A stretch of 64,000 nt of DNA from Shigella phage Sf17, in sequence record MF327004, one strand, 5' to 3'. The first letter of the stretch is position 1. Each line of letters opens with the position of its first letter. Positions 45,565 to 58,079 of the stretch are shown one piece after another. The notes under the pieces are model-generated. The model was given only the letters and a program-made list of their open reading frames with translations, did not search any database and was not told the DNA's origin. The position numbers and the translations under genes were made by a program.

Positions 45565-46446
45565 ATGAAAACTACTATTCGAGTTCTACTTAATTCAAAT
45601 TCCAAAGGTTCTCATCAAGAGACCTTCAACATTATCCAGTTCCCTTCTGGGGAGATTGGTGGTAACTTCTCAGAAGACTTAGTAGGCTTTGTTGAACATG
45701 CTGCTGGTAAGATTGAAAATGTTATCTTCACTGTACAAGGCTATGACAAAGACACACTCTTTGCATTGGCTATGGCTAAAGAGGCTATTGACCGTTTGAT
45801 TCCTCAGAAAGCAACCATGAAAACTGTTCTTTTTGGATTCTTACCAAATGCTCGCTATGACCGTCACATGTTTAAAGGTGATTCAGCAGCACTTAAAGTC
45901 TTTGCAAATCTTGTAAATGCTATGGGGTTTGATGCAGTATGTGCTCTGGATACTCACAGTAATGTAGCAGAGAACTTGTTTAAGTGCTTCTACAACATCC
46001 CTCAAAAAGAGGCAGCAGTCCACTTTGCAAGTGACCCACGTATTGATTACTTAGTGGCTCCAGATGCAGGTGCAGCTAAGAAGACTGAAGAGGCTGCTAA
46101 AGAGGTTGAGAAACCTTATATTACAATGGCGAAGGTACGAAACCTGAAAACTGGTGAAATCACTGGTATGCGCATCCTTGATGATGTAGACTTAACAGGT
46201 AAGACTGTTATGATTCTGGATGATATCTGTGATGGTGGTCGAACCTTTATCGAGGCTGCAAAGTATCTTCGTGAAGCTGGAGCAGAACGTGTAGAGCTTT
46301 ATGTTACTCATGGGATTTTCTCTAAAGGTGTTGAAAATCTCCTTGACAATGGTATCGACCATATCTACACTACAAACTCACTAGGGGATGAAAAAGACCG
46401 TGGTCTTTCCCACTTCTCACAAGTGACCGTAGCAAATATTGAATAA
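45565..46446 (+). CDS. prs: ribose-phosphate pyrophosphokinase (PRPP synthetase)
   Basis: Segment GKTVMILDDICDGGRTFIEAAKYL matches the PRPP-binding loop; ATG 45565 after GAGAGAGA (track start 45547 is TTG). Confidence 0.75.
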   Translation: MKTTIRVLLNSNSKGSHQETFNIIQFPSGEIGGNFSEDLVGFVEHAAGKIENVIFTVQGYDKDTLFALAMAKEAIDRLIPQKATMKTVLFGFLPNARYDRHMFKGDSAALKVFANLVNAMGFDAVCALDTHSNVAENLFKCFYNIPQKEAAVHFASDPRIDYLVAPDAGAAKKTEEAAKEVEKPYITMAKVRNLKTGEITGMRILDDVDLTGKTVMILDDICDGGRTFIEAAKYLREAGAERVELYVTHGIFSKGVENLLDNGIDHIYTTNSLGDEKDRGLSHFSQVTVANIE

Positions 46447-46490: not shown

Positions 46491-48308
46491 ATGACTAAAT
46501 CAATCTATGCAGTACCAGCAGGTCTTAATGCAGATGCTTATAAAGCGGGTCATATCTATCAGTATCCAGATGCTACACAGTATCTTATGCTGAACTTAAC
46601 ACCTCGTGGAGATAAATGGTTTAACTCTCCGTTAGAGATTGATGGTGTTGTAGCTTTTGGTATTCAGCGTTTTGTAAAAGACTATCTGGTAGACCACTGG
46701 AATGCAACGTTCTTTGAACGTGATAAGAAAGAAGCCATTGACGAAATCTTGGAAATCATGAATGGTGTCCTTGGTGCAGATGCTATTGGTCGTCAACATT
46801 GGGAAGAACTTCATGACTTGGGTTACCTGCCTGTTGAAGTCTACTCTGTAGAGGAAGGTACAATTGTCCCTATGCGTGTCCCGATGATTGTCTTCAAAAA
46901 CACTGTAGAAGGATTCCATTGGGTAGCTGGTTATCTTGAAGATGCTTTCTCTGCTGAAATCTGGAAGGCTTGTACGATTGCAACTATTGCACTGCATTAC
47001 AAACGTATCTGTAAGCAATGGGCTGATAAGACCTGTGACAATGACTTCCATTTACCTTGGCAGTGTCATGACTTTGCAATGCGTGGTATGTCTGGCTTCA
47101 CAGATGATGCGTTTAACGCAGTAGGTCACCTGACAAGTTTTAAAGGTACTGACAGCTTCCCTGCTGTATATACAGCTAAACGTGCATATGGTCAGTTTAT
47201 GAATGTAGGTGAGATTGGTAACTCTGTCCCGGCTACTGAGCACTCTGTGATGTGTGCAAACATCTCATGGAACAGTCTTAACAAAGAGGTAAGTGATTGG
47301 CATCTATCGCATTCTGACAACTTACTTGATGCAATGCGTTGGCGTGGTGAGGTAGAAACTTTCCATCGCCTTCTGACAGAAGTTTACCCAACTGGTATTG
47401 CAAGTGCCGTATCAGATACTTACAACTTCTGGCGTACTGTTACACAGATTCTGCCAGAGCTACGTAATGTAATCCTGAATCGTGATGGTAAGTTGGTAAT
47501 CCGTCCAGACTCTGGAGACCCTGTTCACATTGTCACAGGTTACAAAGCCATTGAATGGGAAACTGCTAAGTCAATGTTCTATAAGCACATGAAAGAGCTT
47601 GCACCGAACAATACACATCTGCATGACACAATCTTGAATTGTGAAATGTCTGATATTGGCTTTGGGTTCTCTGCTTGGCTAATCTCTGAAGGTTATGAGA
47701 TGGTTGTTGATAAAGAAGATTTTGAATCTGCTGATACAATCAACCTTATTACTGCTCAGAAGACTGGACAGTTTACTGTGAAGCGTATGTTAACAGCAGA
47801 AATTGATGGAGCTATCCACACGCTGTATAACATCTTTGGTGGCACTGTTAACTCCAAAGGGTACAAAGTACTGGATGAGCACATTGGGCTAATCTACGGT
47901 GATTCTATCACTCTGGAAAGGGCTAATGAGATTCTGTCACGTCTTGCTGATAAAGGTTTTGCAAGTTCTAACGTAGTGTTTGGTGTAGGCTCATACACCT
48001 ATCAGTACCTGACTCGTGACACCTTTGCATTTGCTGTTAAAGCAACTCTTGCACAGATGGACGGTCAAGAAATTATGCTGGCTAAAGACCCTAAAACTGA
48101 CAGCGGTCTTAAGAAGTCTGCTTTTGGTGGAGTTGTCCCTATGTGGGATGGTGACAAGCTGGTAGCTGTAGATGGTTTTGGCTTTGCAGAGTTTGAAGGT
48201 GCAATTGACAACTGTCATAGTGCTTTGAAACTGGTATTTAGCAACTCGCAACCTTATGGTTACATTAACCTGCGTGATGTTCGAAATACTATTGACAAGC
48301 AACTTTAA
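46491..48308 (+). CDS. nadV: nicotinamide phosphoribosyltransferase (NAMPT/NadV)
   Basis: 605 aa; segments LVIRPDSGDP and IYGDSITLERANEI match the NAMPT active-site region; about 100-aa insertion relative to canonical length. Confidence 0.75.
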   Translation: MTKSIYAVPAGLNADAYKAGHIYQYPDATQYLMLNLTPRGDKWFNSPLEIDGVVAFGIQRFVKDYLVDHWNATFFERDKKEAIDEILEIMNGVLGADAIGRQHWEELHDLGYLPVEVYSVEEGTIVPMRVPMIVFKNTVEGFHWVAGYLEDAFSAEIWKACTIATIALHYKRICKQWADKTCDNDFHLPWQCHDFAMRGMSGFTDDAFNAVGHLTSFKGTDSFPAVYTAKRAYGQFMNVGEIGNSVPATEHSVMCANISWNSLNKEVSDWHLSHSDNLLDAMRWRGEVETFHRLLTEVYPTGIASAVSDTYNFWRTVTQILPELRNVILNRDGKLVIRPDSGDPVHIVTGYKAIEWETAKSMFYKHMKELAPNNTHLHDTILNCEMSDIGFGFSAWLISEGYEMVVDKEDFESADTINLITAQKTGQFTVKRMLTAEIDGAIHTLYNIFGGTVNSKGYKVLDEHIGLIYGDSITLERANEILSRLADKGFASSNVVFGVGSYTYQYLTRDTFAFAVKATLAQMDGQEIMLAKDPKTDSGLKKSAFGGVVPMWDGDKLVAVDGFGFAEFEGAIDNCHSALKLVFSNSQPYGYINLRDVRNTIDKQL

Positions 48309-52731: not shown

Positions 52732-52756
52732 GGGGCTGCTTCGGCAGCCTTTTTTA
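52732..52756 (+). terminator. rho-independent terminator (UUCG tetraloop)
   Basis: GGCTGC-TTCG-GCAGCC followed by T6. Confidence 0.6.
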
Positions 52757-52757
52757 T

Positions 52758-52785
52758 TTGAAAAATGTGCAGGTTAGTGTATAAT
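52758..52785 (+). promoter_or_regulatory. sigma70-type promoter TTGAAA-16-TATAAT
   Basis: Consensus -10 TATAAT; spacer contains TGTGCAGGT, the core of the 56.9-57.2 kb repeats. Confidence 0.5.
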
Positions 52786-52816: not shown

Positions 52817-53365
52817 ATGAAGAAATTTGTTTTAGGTTTGTGCTTATTCTTTACAGCACATTTAGCTACAGCATCTGACTGTCCAGAGCTTACAATCAGC
52901 CAGAAAGTTAATATGTTAAAAGCATATAACTATGGCGAAGGGCAGATGGGAAAAGGTTGGGGAATCCCTTTAGCAGCTATAGCCTTACAAGAGTCACAAT
53001 TAGGTGTCATGTTAGAAAATAAAAAGACTCATGATTATGGTGTTTTCCAGAATCACTTGAAGACTGTTGTAAAGCGTAACAAGGTATCTCCAAAGGTTGC
53101 TAAGAAGAAGCTAGTAAGTGACTTCCATTACTCAGCGAAAGAGGCTCATAAGGAGCTATTATTCTGGACTAAGGTTCATGGTAACCCAGATGGAAAGTAC
53201 TCTATGAAGCGTGTCCTAGCTTCTTATAATGCTGGTTACAAATACAAGATTCCAAAGGCTAGACAATACTCTCAAGATGTGTACAATAACATGAAACTGC
53301 TGGCTCAATGTGAGTTTGCAACAAACATTAAAAAGGTAAAATATGAGCGAATCAAAACAATTTGA
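52817..53365 (+). CDS. lytic transglycosylase-like protein with signal peptide
   Basis: ATG 52817 after AGGAG; signal-peptide-like MKKFVLGLCLFFTAHLATA; motifs ALQESQLG, YGVFQ, SYNAG resemble lytic transglycosylase catalytic region. Confidence 0.45.
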   Translation: MKKFVLGLCLFFTAHLATASDCPELTISQKVNMLKAYNYGEGQMGKGWGIPLAAIALQESQLGVMLENKKTHDYGVFQNHLKTVVKRNKVSPKVAKKKLVSDFHYSAKEAHKELLFWTKVHGNPDGKYSMKRVLASYNAGYKYKIPKARQYSQDVYNNMKLLAQCEFATNIKKVKYERIKTI

Positions 53366-54038
53366 TATGGTTCTGTGTCATGCTTATGATATTAAGCCAC
53401 TTGATTTAGATATCAGTTCTGCAAGTTGGTCAGATATTGCTAAAGCTGACTTTGCAGATACAGCAAGAGATGTTGTGTGTAGCTTTGAAGACTTCCACTC
53501 AACAAAGACACAGATTCCTTGTCAGGATTTGCTAACAGGTAAAACTGTATATGTTGGTCGTAACAGCCTTATCTTGGTTGCAAAGAACTTGGAAGAAAAA
53601 CGTAAAATGGTCTTAGCAGACATTGATGGTGTTCTTACAAGTTTTGACAAGAAACTTAATGCAACTTTGTTAGATGATGGTACTTACTCACAGTATACTA
53701 ACTTGGTAGACTCTCGCAGAGCTAAACCAACATATGTTTTTAACATTCTGTGTGGTATATCAAGAAATGCTGATATAGGATTCTTAACTGCTCGTGGTGA
53801 ATCACAAAGAGTTGTCACACATCTTTTCCTGAATGAGAATGTAGACAGTGATTTCCTACTGTTTATGCGTGGATTTGGTGACAATGAGATTAGTGCAGAA
53901 AGTTTGAAAGTTCGTATGCTTCAGTCTTGCATTCTACCTTACTATGATGTAGTATGCTTTATAGAAGATACAGTGAAGAACGTGGAGAAGGTTGAAAGAA
54001 TCTTACCACACATCAAAACAATGCTTGTTAAAAACTGA
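53343..54038 (+). CDS. HAD-superfamily hydrolase-like protein
   Basis: 231 aa; motif LADIDGVLT (DxDG[TV]) typical of HAD phosphatases/nucleotidases. Confidence 0.4.
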   Translation: MSESKQFDMVLCHAYDIKPLDLDISSASWSDIAKADFADTARDVVCSFEDFHSTKTQIPCQDLLTGKTVYVGRNSLILVAKNLEEKRKMVLADIDGVLTSFDKKLNATLLDDGTYSQYTNLVDSRRAKPTYVFNILCGISRNADIGFLTARGESQRVVTHLFLNENVDSDFLLFMRGFGDNEISAESLKVRMLQSCILPYYDVVCFIEDTVKNVEKVERILPHIKTMLVKN

Positions 54039-55679: not shown

Positions 55680-55914
55680 AGTTACACGTCAAGTATTAGC
55701 AGGGGCTATATTTGTTGGAAGGGATGAGGTGATGCCATTTGGTTCACGAATCTATAAAGGTTCTGTACTATCACATAGCCACTTTAAGGCTGGTGATTTT
55801 TGTCACTATATTAACAGGGGCTATCTAAGAGAGGAACTTGGATATTGGAAGACCCGCATTAAGGAAAGATACGGTGACAGAGTATTCTTACAAGAGGTAA
55901 TTTCAAATGGCTGA
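55654..55914 (+). CDS. hypothetical protein
   Basis: 86-aa ORF with AAAGGTG SD. Confidence 0.4.
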   Translation: MKAILVRSKVTRQVLAGAIFVGRDEVMPFGSRIYKGSVLSHSHFKAGDFCHYINRGYLREELGYWKTRIKERYGDRVFLQEVISNG

Positions 55915-56107
55915 TTTCTGCACTAAGTGTTCTGTTGAGATGTTTGGAAAAGATACAGGAGACTTAAAAGGTCTCTTTACAAAAGCAGAGTTTGAAGCTG
56001 GTTCAGCAATGCCAGTAATCTGTGAAGGCTGTGGTGCTTTATGGGTAGACCATGAAGGTAACCGAGTTAAACCCTCTGAAGATAACGAACGTTGGGAGCA
56101 TTACTAA
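55907..56107 (+). CDS. small Cys-rich protein (zinc-ribbon-like)
   Basis: 66 aa with CTKCS ... CEGCG cysteine pairs. Confidence 0.4.
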   Translation: MADFCTKCSVEMFGKDTGDLKGLFTKAEFEAGSAMPVICEGCGALWVDHEGNRVKPSEDNERWEHY

Positions 56108-56108
56108 T

Positions 56109-56903
56109 ATGGGTATCGTAAAAATTATTAAAGGTGATATCTTTAAAGACTTTGATGGTAAGAAGTTTGATATCATTGGTCACGGTTGTAACTGCATGAA
56201 CTTGATGGGTTCAGGTATCGCAGCAACAATTGCTAAACGCTACCCAAAAGCTTATGAAACTGACGCTGAGGTTTATGCTACAGTAGGTGGTGAAAATCAT
56301 AACCCTAAGCACCTAATGCTTGGTAACATCTCTGTAGCACGTTTTAAGCAGGGTCGGATTGCTAACCTTTATACTCAGGTTATCACTGGCAAAGATGCAC
56401 GGTACAATGCTTTAGAAGCAGCTTTGCAGCGTCTGAATAATTACTGCAAAGTCAACCAACTTAAGAAAGTTGGGCTTCCTATGATTTGTGCAGGGATTGG
56501 TGGTCTTGATAGTATGGCTGTGCTGTCCATTATTAATCAGACTATGAAAGATGTTGACGTATATATGTATGTCTATGAAGATAAGATGTACAGTCAGTTG
56601 ACTAGTCCTGTTACTGGTTGGGAGAACTTCAGTGAGCCTCAATATTTTGATGGTGTTGCTGTGGTAGGCAAGGATAAAGTTACCCTCAAGGTGAAGCGTA
56701 ATGGCAAGGTACACACCAGTTACCCTCCGGTTGAGAAGTACAATCGAAGTAACGCTCAAGTTACCCACCCGTTACAAGGTCACCACCACAGAGCGGTAAC
56801 GTTTGGTGATGATGCAAGTGTGTATATCAATGCGACTACAGAAGAGTTTGCAGAAGATTATATCACACATGAAAACGTAAACTATGTTGAAGCACGTAAC
56901 TAA
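56109..56903 (+). CDS. macro-domain protein (Poa1p-like ADP-ribose-phosphate phosphatase family) with C-terminal extension
   Basis: ATG 56109; motifs KGDIFK, DIIGHGCNC, GSGIAATIAKRYP, GLPMICAGIGGLD parallel yeast Poa1p (IHSCNC ... GGGIAYQLALRYP); about 100 extra C-terminal residues. Confidence 0.5.
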   Translation: MGIVKIIKGDIFKDFDGKKFDIIGHGCNCMNLMGSGIAATIAKRYPKAYETDAEVYATVGGENHNPKHLMLGNISVARFKQGRIANLYTQVITGKDARYNALEAALQRLNNYCKVNQLKKVGLPMICAGIGGLDSMAVLSIINQTMKDVDVYMYVYEDKMYSQLTSPVTGWENFSEPQYFDGVAVVGKDKVTLKVKRNGKVHTSYPPVEKYNRSNAQVTHPLQGHHHRAVTFGDDASVYINATTEEFAEDYITHENVNYVEARN

Positions 56904-56930: not shown

Positions 56931-57156
56931 CCCTCCAAAGTTTGAGTTTAAAATCTCAGGTAAGGGGGGCTTTTTCATTTTAAATTTGTGCAGGTATAGT
57001 TGCATAGAACTCTGGACAGATTTCTTTAGCTGAACTCCAAAGGGAAAATTCATTTCAAATTTGTGCAGGTTTAGACTCCAAAGAGCTTTTTCATTTTCAA
57101 TCTGTGCAGATGCAGTTGGACTCCAAAGGGAAAATTCATTTTCAAATTGTGCAGGT
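56931..57156. repeat. tandem direct repeats (4 copies, about 36-bp unit at 41-45-bp period)
   Basis: CTCCAAAG-N-TTCATTT(T)CAAAT(T)TGTGCAGRT at 56931/56971-56995 (split copy), 57035-57070, 57076-57111, 57121-57156. Confidence 0.65.
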
Positions 57157-57329: not shown

Positions 57330-57358
57330 TTGACTTCATAAATCCAGTCTTATAGTAT
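57330..57358 (+). promoter_or_regulatory. sigma70-type promoter TTGACT-17-TAGTAT
   Basis: In AT-rich region; followed by CATCAACGGGAAACATCCC hairpin and the conserved leader CAATCCTAAACTGGAGAATCTAAAAATG. Confidence 0.5.
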
Positions 57359-57407
57359 TTGCATCAACGGGAAACATCCCAACAATCCTAAACTGGAGAA
57401 TCTAAAA

Positions 57408-57648: not shown

Positions 57649-57698
57649 AAGCCCCAGATAAAGAGCTTTACCAACAATCCTAAACTGGAGACTCTAAA

Positions 57699-58079
57699 AT
57701 GAAATATCGTGCGCCTAAATTTATCAACAAAGAAAACTTTCGTAGTATCTTAGAAGAAACTATGAAAGAAAACTTCAAAGGAAAAATAATTGTTGTTCAC
57801 GCTTACAATTTTAAGTATGATGTTAATGGTAACCGTATTAACCACTACAAAGCTACTATGCTTGACGGTACATTATCCGGTGAAAAAGCTATCATAAATG
57901 CTATTGCAGGACGTGGTAAAACTGTGATACGATGCGAAAAAAGACGCTATCAAGGCGGTAAATATGGGTATGAAGATGCAATGTACCATCTTGATAAAAT
58001 GGGGTATGATGTAGAGAAAGCTGGAGTATCTCAAACTATTGGTAGTGACGGCTACGTTACAGTTTTCAAAATTAACTAA
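57699..58079 (+). CDS. hypothetical early protein
   Basis: 126-aa ORF behind conserved cassette leader. Confidence 0.45.
   Translation: MKYRAPKFINKENFRSILEETMKENFKGKIIVVHAYNFKYDVNGNRINHYKATMLDGTLSGEKAIINAIAGRGKTVIRCEKRRYQGGKYGYEDAMYHLDKMGYDVEKAGVSQTIGSDGYVTVFKIN

What the first reader, a model, noticed from the sequence alone, without database searches (positions are those of the whole stretch)
56109..56903. Poa1p-type macro-domain protein with novel C-terminal extension
The N-terminal ~160 aa carry the macro-domain signature in its Poa1p-like form (DIIGHGCNC...GSGIAATIAKRYP), a family that hydrolyses ADP-ribose 1-phosphate derivatives and de-ADP-ribosylates substrates. In a phage that also encodes NAMPT and PRPP synthetase, a macro domain could reverse ADP-ribosylation-based defence (DarT-like toxins), destroy ADP-ribose-derived immune signals (Thoeris-type cyclic ADPR), or process ADP-ribose phosphate produced during RNA repair. 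The ~100-aa C-terminal part has no motif I recognise.
Basis: partly seen in the sequence, partly recalled or inferred. Interest (0 to 1): 0.65.

Follow-up and report, generated by a model that had tools for sequence, protein, structure and literature searches.

The report
Phage macrodomain with orphan C-terminal domain
This phage gene encodes an ADP-ribose-removing "macro" enzyme, closest to phage T4 Tk.4, which lets T4 escape a bacterial defence that tags phage DNA with ADP-ribose; it is fused to a roughly 100-residue tail domain found only in this phage subfamily, and that tail's role is unknown.

Summary
Window 56109-56903(+) is a real 264-aa gene in a Mooglevirus (Ounavirinae) phage 99.7% identical to Shigella phage Sf19.

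**Macro domain (residues 1-160).** It passes the Pfam Macro threshold. The AlphaFold model matches TARG1, DarG and Poa1p about equally. "Poa1p-type" is only partly right: the H-x-C-N-C motif is shared, but Poa1p S30 and F152 are not.

**Closest characterised relative.** This is T4 Tk.4 (40% identity, E=1e-18, same PHROG 335). A 2025 preprint shows genetically that Tk.4 is T4's anti-DarTG2 factor, "AdfM". PhiKZ AdfM, which removes DarT2-made ADP-ribose from DNA in vitro, is in the same PHROG. DarG is the only hit among 5027 defence-system models.

**Best reading.** The protein is an orphan DarG-like eraser of thymidine-linked ADP-ribose on phage ssDNA. One caveat applies: like Tk.4, it has Gln where DarG and TARG1 have the catalytic Lys.

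**C-terminal domain (161-264).** It is a genuine orphan:
- An exhaustive HMMER search of 1.84 billion proteins found only its own family.
- It is conserved across Ounavirinae, under purifying selection, and evolves faster than the macro domain.

**Verdict.** A new variant of a known kind, of moderate interest.

The parts
56109..56903 (+). Complete gene: 264-aa two-domain protein (macro domain plus Ounavirinae-specific C-terminal domain); stop TAA at 56901-56903
   Evidence: ORF list, sequence and translation. PHROG 335 matches at E=2e-105 over residues 1-263. Orthologues with the same start and length occur in 28 viral contigs.
56109..56588 (+). Macro domain, residues 1-160, TARG1/DarG/Poa1p-like class, T4 Tk.4 (AdfM) subgroup
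   Evidence: Pfam Macro 30.7 bits, above the cut-off of 22. AF2 model with Foldseek hits to TARG1 at 1.1e-9, DarG at 4.5e-9 and Poa1p at 7e-9. 40% identity to T4 Tk.4, E=1e-18. NCBIfam DarG 49 bits and PADLOC DarG 1.6e-13, macro part only.
56181..56222 (+). H25-G-C-N28-C ... G34-S-G36-I-A38: N-terminal active-site motif and first ADP-ribose/phosphate-binding loop
   Evidence: H25, G26, C27, N28, G34, G36 and A38 are invariant in a 16-sequence family alignment. N28 aligns with PhiKZ AdfM N23 and with the DarG Asn shown as an active-site residue (Taq N22) (PMC13309987). H25 aligns with Poa1p H23.
56364..56378 (+). N86-L-Y-T89-Q90 motif: Q90 occupies the position of the catalytic lysine of TARG1 (K84) and DarG (Taq K80)
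   Evidence: N86, T89 and Q90 are invariant in the family. In alignment A4 and in the HMMER alignment to TARG1, the residue after the invariant Thr is K in TARG1, both DarGs and PhiKZ AdfM; it is Q in the window, T4 Tk.4, P0009 and P0014; it is S in Poa1p.
56472..56504 (+). G-L-P124-M-I-C127-A-G129-I-G-G: second phosphate-binding loop. C127 replaces the Gly found in at least 90% of aligned family members. G131 aligns with TARG1 D125 and Poa1p F152
   Evidence: Alignments A1 and A4 and the HMMER alignment to TARG1.
56589..56900 (+). C-terminal domain, residues 161-264: beta-rich orphan domain restricted to Ounavirinae macro proteins
56094..56098 (+). GGGAG Shine-Dalgarno-like sequence 10 nt upstream of the ATG, inside the 3' end of the preceding gene
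   Evidence: Read directly from the sequence.
55907..56107 (+). Upstream 66-aa CxxC...CxxC mini-protein (phrog_2210) whose stop lies 1 nt before the macro ATG; possible co-translated partner (association only)
   Evidence: ORF list. The same 0-1 nt junction is kept in Felixounavirus, Mooglevirus and Suspvirus relatives, including phiWec172. It matches a PHROG of unknown function and has no Pfam hit.

Best explanation
The gene encodes a phage counter-defence enzyme of the AdfM (anti-DarT factor, macrodomain) kind. It sits in a block with rIIA/rIIB and many small genes, which I infer to be the early region. The N-terminal macro domain binds the ADP-ribose that a host DarT2-type toxin attaches to thymidines in single-stranded phage DNA. 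It hydrolyses the ribose-base bond, so that replication and packaging can go on. It therefore acts as an 'orphan antitoxin' with no toxin gene beside it. What is shown here: the macro fold, the conserved ADP-ribose-binding loops, and specific homology to T4 Tk.4. What is shown elsewhere: Tk.4 is needed for T4 to plate on DarTG2 cells, and PhiKZ AdfM (same PHROG) removes DarT2-made ADP-ribose from DNA in vitro. What is inferred: this protein has the same substrate. The chemistry cannot be identical to DarG/TARG1, because the catalytic lysine is replaced by an invariant glutamine (Q90), as in Tk.4. A water-activating or substrate-assisted mechanism using N28, H25 and Q90 is my guess. The C-terminal 104 residues form a separate, non-catalytic beta-rich module. 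Only scattered hydrophobic, Gly and Pro positions are conserved in it. It is specific to Ounavirinae and evolves faster than the macro domain. I infer an accessory role, such as binding ssDNA, the toxin or another partner, or oligomerisation, but nothing here tests that.
For: Macro fold. Closest characterised homologue is T4 Tk.4: 40% identity over 136 aa, E=1e-18, with shared motifs HGCNC, MGSG[IV]A, NLYTQ and P-x-I-G-A-G-I-G; it is also the reciprocal best and only macro hit in the window. Tk.4 knockout sensitises T4 to DarTG2, and tk.4 was the single significant HIDEN-SEQ hit. The window macro, Tk.4 and PhiKZ AdfM all fall in phrog_335, at E=2e-70, 1e-65 and 8e-43. PhiKZ AdfM de-ADP-ribosylates DarT2-modified DNA and rescues DarT2 toxicity. 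DarG is the only hit among 5027 PADLOC models and the top NCBIfam hit, and the window scores higher than Tk.4 does: 48.9 against 36.0 bits, and 49.2 against 30.3 bits. Thymidine-ADPr hydrolysis was found in the TARG1/DarG-class enzymes tested (PMC12879935). Standalone relatives P0009 and P0014 sit next to PolA and SSB genes in phage replication modules. The CTD is real and constrained: it is conserved from Mooglevirus to Erwinia Kolesnikvirus, with dN/dS 0.10-0.41 against 0.07-0.22 for the macro domain.
Against: There is no experiment on this protein or on any Ounavirinae orthologue. Identity to Tk.4 is only 40%, and macro domains change substrate at that distance. The DarG/TARG1 catalytic Lys is absent (Q90), and TARG1 D125 aligns to Gly. 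Evidence for Tk.4 itself is genetic only; its authors write that enzymatic removal 'seems likely'. The window protein carries C127 where other members have Gly in the second binding loop, with unknown effect. NCBIfam DarG scores 49 bits, far below the family cut-off of 250, and covers only the macro part. The CTD has no counterpart in Tk.4 or PhiKZ AdfM, so the full protein may do something extra or different.
Confidence: 0.5

Rival explanations
1. A small-molecule ADP-ribose-derivative hydrolase, as the public annotation 'phosphatase' implies. This would be a Poa1p-like ADP-ribose-1''-phosphate phosphatase or an O-acetyl-ADP-ribose deacetylase that clears by-products of RNA repair or NAD+ turnover, possibly feeding the phage NAMPT/PRPP-synthetase NAD+ salvage route.
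For: Poa1p is the best PDB sequence hit (E=5e-5) with a near-identical H-x-C-N-C...G-x-G-I-A...R-Y-P-K-A stretch. Like Poa1p, the protein lacks the TARG1/DarG lysine. A Pnkp-like gene lies 2 kb upstream, and NAMPT plus PRPP synthetase lie about 8-10 kb upstream. Iyer and colleagues argue that phage macros mainly target soluble ADPr derivatives (PMC9503650).
Against: The Poa1p match covers only residues 4-60. Poa1p S30 and F152 align to L32 and G131. No Tpt1/KptA, 2H phosphoesterase or RNA ligase is annotated in the relatives' regions I inspected (Sf19 26000-75000, Sf14 66000-87575, the Sf18 locus), so the source of ADP-ribose-1''-phosphate is missing there. The nearer homologue Tk.4 has a DNA-defence phenotype.
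Confidence: 0.2
2. An eraser of ADP-ribose on protein or RNA. It would reverse host ADP-ribosyltransferase defences such as CmdT-like mRNA modification or other ART toxins, or tune a phage-encoded ART.
For: TARG1-class macros also remove protein-linked ADP-ribose (established knowledge). The fold match to TARG1 is the best in the PDB. Macros and ARTs co-occur widely in myoviruses.
Against: T4 carries the homologous Tk.4 yet is strongly restricted by CmdTAC, so that macro does not neutralise CmdT. No ART gene is annotated in the relatives' regions I inspected. The catalytic Lys/Asp pair of TARG1 is absent.
Confidence: 0.15
3. An anti-Thoeris factor: the macro domain hydrolyses or sequesters TIR-made signals (2'cADPR, 3'cADPR, His-ADPR), with the C-terminal domain helping to bind them.
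For: Macro domains can bind His-ADPR, as Thoeris II ThsA does. The phage invests in NAD+ salvage, which counters NADase effectors. The idea was proposed on comparative grounds for phage macros in general.
Against: No PADLOC Thoeris macro model is hit; only DarG is. A lysate screen of 72 phages found cADPR cleavage only from an unrelated RyR-domain enzyme, and its authors state that no other cADPR-degrading proteins were known (PMC13232231). The phage list is not in the text I read, so this is weak evidence. No homologue has an anti-Thoeris phenotype.
Confidence: 0.08

Closest known systems
Phage T4 Tk.4 = AdfM (anti-DarT factor, macrodomain; NP_049723)
   Same: Same PHROG (335). 40% identity, E=1e-18. 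Identical signature motifs (HGCNC, MGSG[IV]A, NLYTQ, P-x-I-G-A-G-I-G), including Gln in place of the DarG lysine. Both are orphan macro genes in lytic myoviruses of enterobacteria.
   Different: Tk.4 is a bare 155-aa macro domain, whereas this protein has an extra 104-aa C-terminal domain. Only Tk.4 has a demonstrated DarTG2 phenotype, and that evidence is genetic and from a preprint.
PhiKZ gp104 AdfM (chimallivirus DarG2-like macrodomain)
   Same: A phage-encoded orphan macro in phrog_335. The Asn of the N-terminal motif is conserved (N23 there, N28 here).
   Different: PhiKZ AdfM is a true DarG2-type sequence: E=9e-25 to M. tuberculosis DarG, with an F-P-T-K motif carrying the lysine. It is only 21% identical to the window protein in alignment A4. 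It has no C-terminal domain and is imported into a phage nucleus.
Bacterial DarG (DarTG2 antitoxin; PDB 5m31, 5m3e, 5m3i)
   Same: Macro fold (Foldseek E=4.5e-9, target TM 0.82). The only defence-system profile hit. A two-domain layout of N-terminal macro plus a C-terminal domain.
   Different: The catalytic Lys is replaced by Gln. The DarG profiles match only their macro part. The C-terminal domains are not detectably related. There is no adjacent darT gene.
Human TARG1/OARD1 (PDB 4j5s)
   Same: The best structural match (E=1.1e-9, target TM 0.83-0.87). It belongs to the same macro class, which hydrolyses thymidine-linked ADP-ribose on DNA.
   Different: K84 aligns to Q90 and D125 aligns to G131. 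Identity is about 22-24%.
Yeast Poa1p (ADP-ribose-1''-phosphate phosphatase; PDB 6lfq)
   Same: The best PDB sequence hit. It shares H-x-C-N-C...G-x-G-I-A...R-Y-P-K-A and has no lysine after the invariant Thr.
   Different: Similarity is confined to about 60 N-terminal residues. S30 and F152 are not conserved. Poa1p has a long insertion that is absent here. No tRNA-splicing-type pathway that would produce its substrate was seen.

Membership tests
Macro domain superfamily (Pfam PF01661) | Profile match above the curated gathering score | tested here: met
   30.7 bits against a cut-off of 22, E=3.3e-7, residues 25-141 on profile positions 2-117 of 118.
Macro domain superfamily (Pfam PF01661) | Three-layer alpha/beta/alpha fold superposable on solved macro domains | tested here: met
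   AF2 full-length model has mean pLDDT 79.4. Foldseek gave 244 PDB hits at E<=1e-3, and every one of the 50 listed but a single designed protein (4etj) is a macro domain. Target TM is 0.83-0.87 to TARG1.
Macro domain superfamily (Pfam PF01661) | Glycine-rich ADP-ribose/phosphate-binding loops (G-x-G after strand 2; G-x-G-x-G-G after the P-x-I strand) | tested here: met
   G34-S-G36-I-A38 and P124-M-I-C-A-G129-I-G-G are present, and these Gly/Pro positions are invariant in the family. C127 is an unusual replacement of a Gly.
Phage AdfM, T4 Tk.4 type | Specific sequence homology to Tk.4, with its signature motifs | tested here: met
   BLASTP 40% identity over 136 aa, E=1e-18. tblastn of Tk.4 on the window hits only 56115-56501. 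Both fall in phrog_335.
Phage AdfM, T4 Tk.4 type | Required for phage growth on DarTG2-carrying hosts, or removes DarT2-made ADP-ribose from DNA | not testable with these tools
   This needs knockout plating and an in vitro de-ADP-ribosylation assay. It is known only for T4 Tk.4 (genetic) and PhiKZ gp104 (biochemical).
DarG (DarTG2 antitoxin) | Whole-protein match to the curated DarG equivalog model | tested here: not met
   NF048014 scores 49.2 bits against a cut-off of 250, and only profile positions 2-153 of 338 are matched. PADLOC DarG matches positions 5-147 of 329.
DarG (DarTG2 antitoxin) | Catalytic lysine after the invariant Thr (T. aquaticus K80; TARG1 K84) | tested here: not met
   Q90 occupies this position and is invariant in the Tk.4-type group. 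K is present in both DarGs, in TARG1 and in PhiKZ AdfM.
DarG (DarTG2 antitoxin) | C-terminal DarT-binding domain and an adjacent darT gene | tested here: not met
   The CTD gives no hit to DarG profiles or to any PDB fold. The neighbours are small phage genes of unknown function.
Poa1p-type ADP-ribose-1''-phosphate phosphatase | Poa1p active-site residues probed in PDB entries 6lfs, 6lft and 6lfu (H23, S30, F152) | tested here: inconclusive
   H23 aligns to H25 and is conserved. S30 aligns to L32 and F152 aligns to G131, so neither is conserved. Which of these residues is essential rests on a paper that is not in the held library.
Poa1p-type ADP-ribose-1''-phosphate phosphatase | Pathway context that produces ADP-ribose-1''-phosphate (Tpt1/KptA plus a cyclic phosphodiesterase) | tested here: not met
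   No such genes are annotated in the inspected regions of the closely related genomes Sf19, Sf18 and Sf14. Annotation-based only: the window was not scanned with profiles for these families.

The most novel reading that the evidence does not exclude
The fast-evolving, Ounavirinae-only C-terminal domain, perhaps together with the translationally coupled 66-aa CxxC...CxxC mini-protein upstream, is a second counter-defence module. For example, it could bind and block the DarT2 toxin itself, or tether the enzyme to replicating ssDNA. Either would make the protein a convergent two-domain analogue of bacterial DarG built from an unrelated new fold. In addition, the Tk.4-type macro group would use a lysine-independent chemistry for removing ADP-ribose from thymidine.
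Probability: 0.15. Interest if true: 0.6.

Novelty: new variant of a known kind. Interest (0 to 1): 0.38.

Why it matters
Felix-O1-like phages (Ounavirinae) are used for Salmonella, E. coli and Shigella typing, biocontrol and therapy. Knowing which host defences they carry antidotes for helps predict host range.

If this protein is an AdfM, DarTG2 counter-defence would extend to a third large phage group. It would also offer a natural "macro plus accessory domain" variant for asking what limits orphan-antitoxin efficiency.

The Gln-for-Lys replacement it shares with T4 Tk.4 marks an unresolved mechanistic question about how these macros cleave the thymidine-ADP-ribose bond.

The C-terminal domain is a clean example of a lineage-restricted domain with no detectable relatives in 1.84 billion proteins. 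That makes it a good target for structure determination.

Tried and rejected
- **Word-indexed search with the CTD alone.** It returned nothing, not even the CTD's own family, so that tool was uninformative here. I replaced it with the exhaustive HMMER search.
- **Two long proteins hit by the CTD profile (P0018, P0019).** They are TPR-type repeat proteins that match through a repeated 'RAVTLGDIARIY' string. I rejected them as spurious.
- **Family scans of the CTD from three divergent members.** Pfam, NCBIfam and PHROG found nothing beyond phrog_335. DUF4767 at E=0.071 was dismissed.
- **CTD charge pattern as a clue to DNA binding or DNA mimicry.** Net charge varies from -4 to +4 among orthologues, so there is no consistent signal.
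- **Pfam on ten neighbouring ORFs for pathway context.** No hits.
- **Rfam on the repeat-rich spacer downstream.** No credible hit.
- **Upstream in-frame ATG at 56052 (283 aa).** Rejected as the start, because all orthologues begin at MGIVK and that stretch overlaps the preceding gene.
- **Literature on Ounavirinae macro proteins or DarTG sensitivity of these phages.** None found. LeRoux et al. 2022 is not held.
Full report
**1. The observation**

Window 56109-56903 (+) is an intact ORF of 264 codons plus a stop. Its ATG lies 1 nt after the stop of the preceding 66-aa gene, and a GGGAG sits 10 nt upstream. The quoted strings DIIGHGCNC and GSGIAATIAKRYP are at residues 21-29 and 34-46.

The window is a Mooglevirus (Ounavirinae, Felix-O1-like) genome. 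The 3 kb around the gene is 99.7% identical to Shigella phage Sf19 and 93-98% identical to other Shigella, Citrobacter and Escherichia phages. In those records the orthologue is annotated 'hypothetical protein', 'phosphatase' or 'macro domain-containing protein'. The same start (MGIVK...) and a length of 259-264 aa recur in 28 viral contigs. An in-frame ATG at 56052 is therefore not the start.

**2. The N-terminal domain is a macro domain**

- Pfam Macro passes its gathering score: 30.7 against 22 bits, E=3.3e-7.
- An AlphaFold2 model built on a 16-sequence alignment has mean pLDDT 79.4.
- Foldseek against the PDB returns 244 hits at E<=1e-3. Every one of the 50 listed but a single designed protein (4etj) is a macro domain. 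The top hits are TARG1 (1.1e-9, target TM 0.83-0.87), T. aquaticus DarG (4.5e-9, 0.82) and yeast Poa1p (7e-9, 0.77).
- The family alignment has these invariant residues: G9, H25-G-C-N28, G34, G36, A38, L71, N86, T89-Q90, P124 and G129. These cover the two ADP-ribose-binding loops and the residues around the distal ribose.

**3. Is it 'Poa1p-type'?**

Only partly.

| Point | Result |
|---|---|
| Best PDB sequence hit | Poa1p, E=5e-5, residues 4-60 only |
| Poa1p H23 | aligns to H25 (conserved) |
| Poa1p S30 | aligns to L32 (not conserved) |
| Poa1p F152 | aligns to G131 (not conserved) |

I recalled the Poa1p and TARG1 sequences from memory and then checked them against PDB chains, where they matched exactly. 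S30 and F152 are two of the three residues mutated in the deposited Poa1p structures. By fold, TARG1 and DarG are equally close.

One feature does set this protein apart from TARG1 and DarG and resembles Poa1p. After the invariant Thr, TARG1 (K84), both DarGs (Taq K80) and PhiKZ AdfM (K78) have the catalytic lysine, whereas this protein has Gln (Q90). TARG1 D125 aligns to Gly.

**4. The closest characterised relative**

A tblastn search of phage genomes finds this macro type in 2427 records. These include T-even phages, where the match falls in the tk region.

T4 Tk.4 (155 aa) is 40% identical over 136 aa (E=1e-18). It shares every signature motif, including NLYTQ. In the reverse direction, Tk.4 hits only this ORF in the window.

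A 2025 preprint using transposon sequencing of T4 found tk.4 as the single gene depleted on DarTG2-expressing E. coli. It showed that a clean knockout is sensitised, and named the gene adfM. Enzymatic removal of ADP-ribose from DNA was inferred, not shown (bioRxiv 10.1101/2025.11.20.689424).

Independently, PhiKZ gp104 'AdfM' was shown to remove DarT2-made ADP-ribose from a DNA oligonucleotide, to rescue DarT2 toxicity, and to be needed against DarTG2 (PMC13309987). PhiKZ AdfM is a true DarG2-type sequence (E=9e-25 to M. tuberculosis DarG) and only 21% identical to the window protein in alignment A4.

All three proteins fall in phrog_335: window macro 2e-70, Tk.4 1e-65, PhiKZ 8e-43.

Among 5027 PADLOC defence models, the only hit for both the window protein and Tk.4 is DarG (1.6e-13 and 1.3e-9). 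NCBIfam's DarG model is likewise the top hit, at 49 bits for the window protein and 30 bits for Tk.4. Both are far below the 250-bit cut-off, and both cover only the macro part.

**5. The C-terminal domain (residues 161-264)**

*No detectable relatives.*
- An HMM of eight orthologous CTDs was searched exhaustively against 1.84 billion representative proteins. It found only its own family: a full-length member, a 54-aa fragment and a 114-aa fragment.
- It also hit two TPR-type repeat proteins, through a repeated 'RAVTLGDIARIY' string. These are spurious.
- Pfam, NCBIfam and PHROG give nothing except phrog_335 itself.

*The fold is not settled.*
- AF2 predicts a six-strand, one-helix module with pLDDT about 75-87 in the full-length context.
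- Modelled alone, only 2 of 5 models exceed pLDDT 70.
- The only BFVD match is the SUSP2 orthologue, whose model differs by 16 Å rmsd.

*The domain is nevertheless real.*
- It is kept in phiWec172 (40% overall identity) and in Erwinia phage phiEa104 (Kolesnikvirus, 31%).
- Codon analysis shows purifying selection: dN/dS 0.10-0.41 in informative pairs, against 0.07-0.22 for the macro domain.
- Amino-acid change is much faster. Between the window and L010, the macro domain is 91% identical and the CTD 61%, at similar dS.
- Residues conserved across 26 sequences are P, G-V, V-T-L, K, S-x-P-x-V, N, V-x-F and Y. This is a structural pattern, not a catalytic one.
- Net charge is not conserved.

**6. 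Context**

The gene is the last of a run of small same-strand genes downstream of PRPP synthetase (45565-46446), NAMPT (46491-48308), rIIA/rIIB, a lysozyme-like gene, a Pnkp-like gene (53343-54038) and the spanins. All ten neighbouring ORFs lack Pfam hits. No Tpt1/KptA, 2H phosphoesterase, RNA ligase or ADP-ribosyltransferase is annotated in the regions of the close relatives that I inspected. Standalone relatives of the macro domain in two metagenomic phage contigs lie next to DNA polymerase A and SSB genes. That fits a DNA-directed role, but weakly.

**7. Mechanism and rivals**

*Best-supported reading (confidence about 0.5).* This is an orphan, DarG-like eraser of thymidine-linked ADP-ribose on phage ssDNA, that is, an Ounavirinae AdfM carrying an added accessory domain.
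- Shown here: fold, binding loops, and homology to Tk.4.
- Shown elsewhere: the DarTG2 phenotype of Tk.4, and the biochemistry of PhiKZ AdfM.
- Inferred: the same substrate here, and a lysine-independent chemistry.

*Rivals.*
- A small-molecule hydrolase (Appr-1''-p phosphatase or OAADPr deacetylase), about 0.2. The Poa1p-like motif and the public annotation favour it. The lack of a substrate-producing pathway and of Poa1p S30 and F152 argue against it.
- A protein or RNA ADP-ribose eraser, about 0.15. T4 is still restricted by the mRNA ADP-ribosyltransferase system CmdTAC despite carrying Tk.4.
- An anti-Thoeris signal hydrolase or sponge, about 0.08. There is no profile or homologue support. 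A 72-phage lysate screen found cADPR cleavage only from an unrelated RyR-domain enzyme, though I could not see which phages were screened.

**8. Membership versus analogy**

- Macro superfamily: a member, with all three features met.
- DarG: not a member. The lysine, the DarT-binding domain, the equivalog score and an adjacent toxin gene are all unmet.
- T4 Tk.4-type AdfM group: a sequence-level member. The defining phenotype is untestable here.
- Poa1p-type: inconclusive.

**9. Novelty and score**

The macro domain is a known and very common phage family whose function has just been assigned in two other phage groups. The gene is already annotated as a macro protein in public records.

What is new is modest but real:
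- an Ounavirinae-restricted orphan C-terminal domain with no sequence or fold relatives, evolving faster than the catalytic domain;
- the point that the Tk.4-type group, including this protein, lacks the catalytic lysine considered essential in DarG and TARG1 (the essentiality rests on established knowledge, not on a test here).

I rate it a new variant of a known kind, with interest 0.38.

Noticed in passing
window 55907-56107 (+): A 66-aa mini-protein with two CxxC pairs (phrog_2210, unknown function, no Pfam hit) ends 1 nt before the macro ATG. The same 0-1 nt junction is kept across Felixounavirus, Mooglevirus and Suspvirus relatives. In phiWec172 the mini-protein looks much better conserved by eye than the macro protein, which is only 40% identical. 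It is absent upstream of the Erwinia phiEa104 orthologue. It may be a co-translated partner.
   Followed up: partly
window 56953-57156 (+), plus one copy at 52753-52774: Four imperfect 43-nt direct repeats ending in TTCATTTnnAAnTTGTGCAGGT lie immediately downstream of the macro stop codon, inside a spacer of about 480 nt with no annotated gene. The core pattern has 5 matches in the window against 0 expected by chance. There is no Rfam match. A spacer of similar length follows the orthologue in phiWec172 and phiEa104.
   Followed up: partly
window 57379-57407 and 57671-57699 (+): A 29-nt leader, CCAACAATCCTAAACTGGAGAnTCTAAAA, lies directly in front of the ATGs of two consecutive small genes (57408 and 57699). 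It looks like a repeated 5' leader and ribosome-binding cassette. A promoter-like TTGACT-17-TAGTAT sits at 57330-57358.
   Followed up: no
window 56487-56489 (codon 127 of the macro gene): This phage has Cys at position 127 in the second ADP-ribose-binding loop (P-M-I-C-A-G). At least 90% of the aligned family members have Gly there, as does TARG1. The effect on activity is unknown. tblastn shows Sf19 is 100% identical over residues 25-264, so it shares the Cys.
   Followed up: no
window 53343-54038 (+): The ORF annotated 'polynucleotide kinase' in relatives has no Pfam hit at E<=0.01. By PHROG it matches phrog_3970 strongly, and residues 77-217 match only the C-terminal half of a Pnkp-like family (phrog_505) weakly. 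It may therefore be a phosphatase-only end-healing protein rather than a kinase.
   Followed up: partly
L035 5001-5486 and L036 3499-3939 (metagenomic phage contigs): Standalone Tk.4-type macro genes (P0009, P0014) sit inside phage DNA-replication modules. One lies one small gene upstream of a family-A DNA polymerase; the other is separated from an SSB gene by one small ORF.
   Followed up: no
window 56589-56900 compared with L010 3001-3792: Between this phage and the metagenomic relative L010, the macro domain is 91% identical but the C-terminal domain only 61%, at similar synonymous divergence (dS 0.81 and 1.05). This points to accelerated protein evolution of the tail domain rather than a recent domain swap.
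   Followed up: partly
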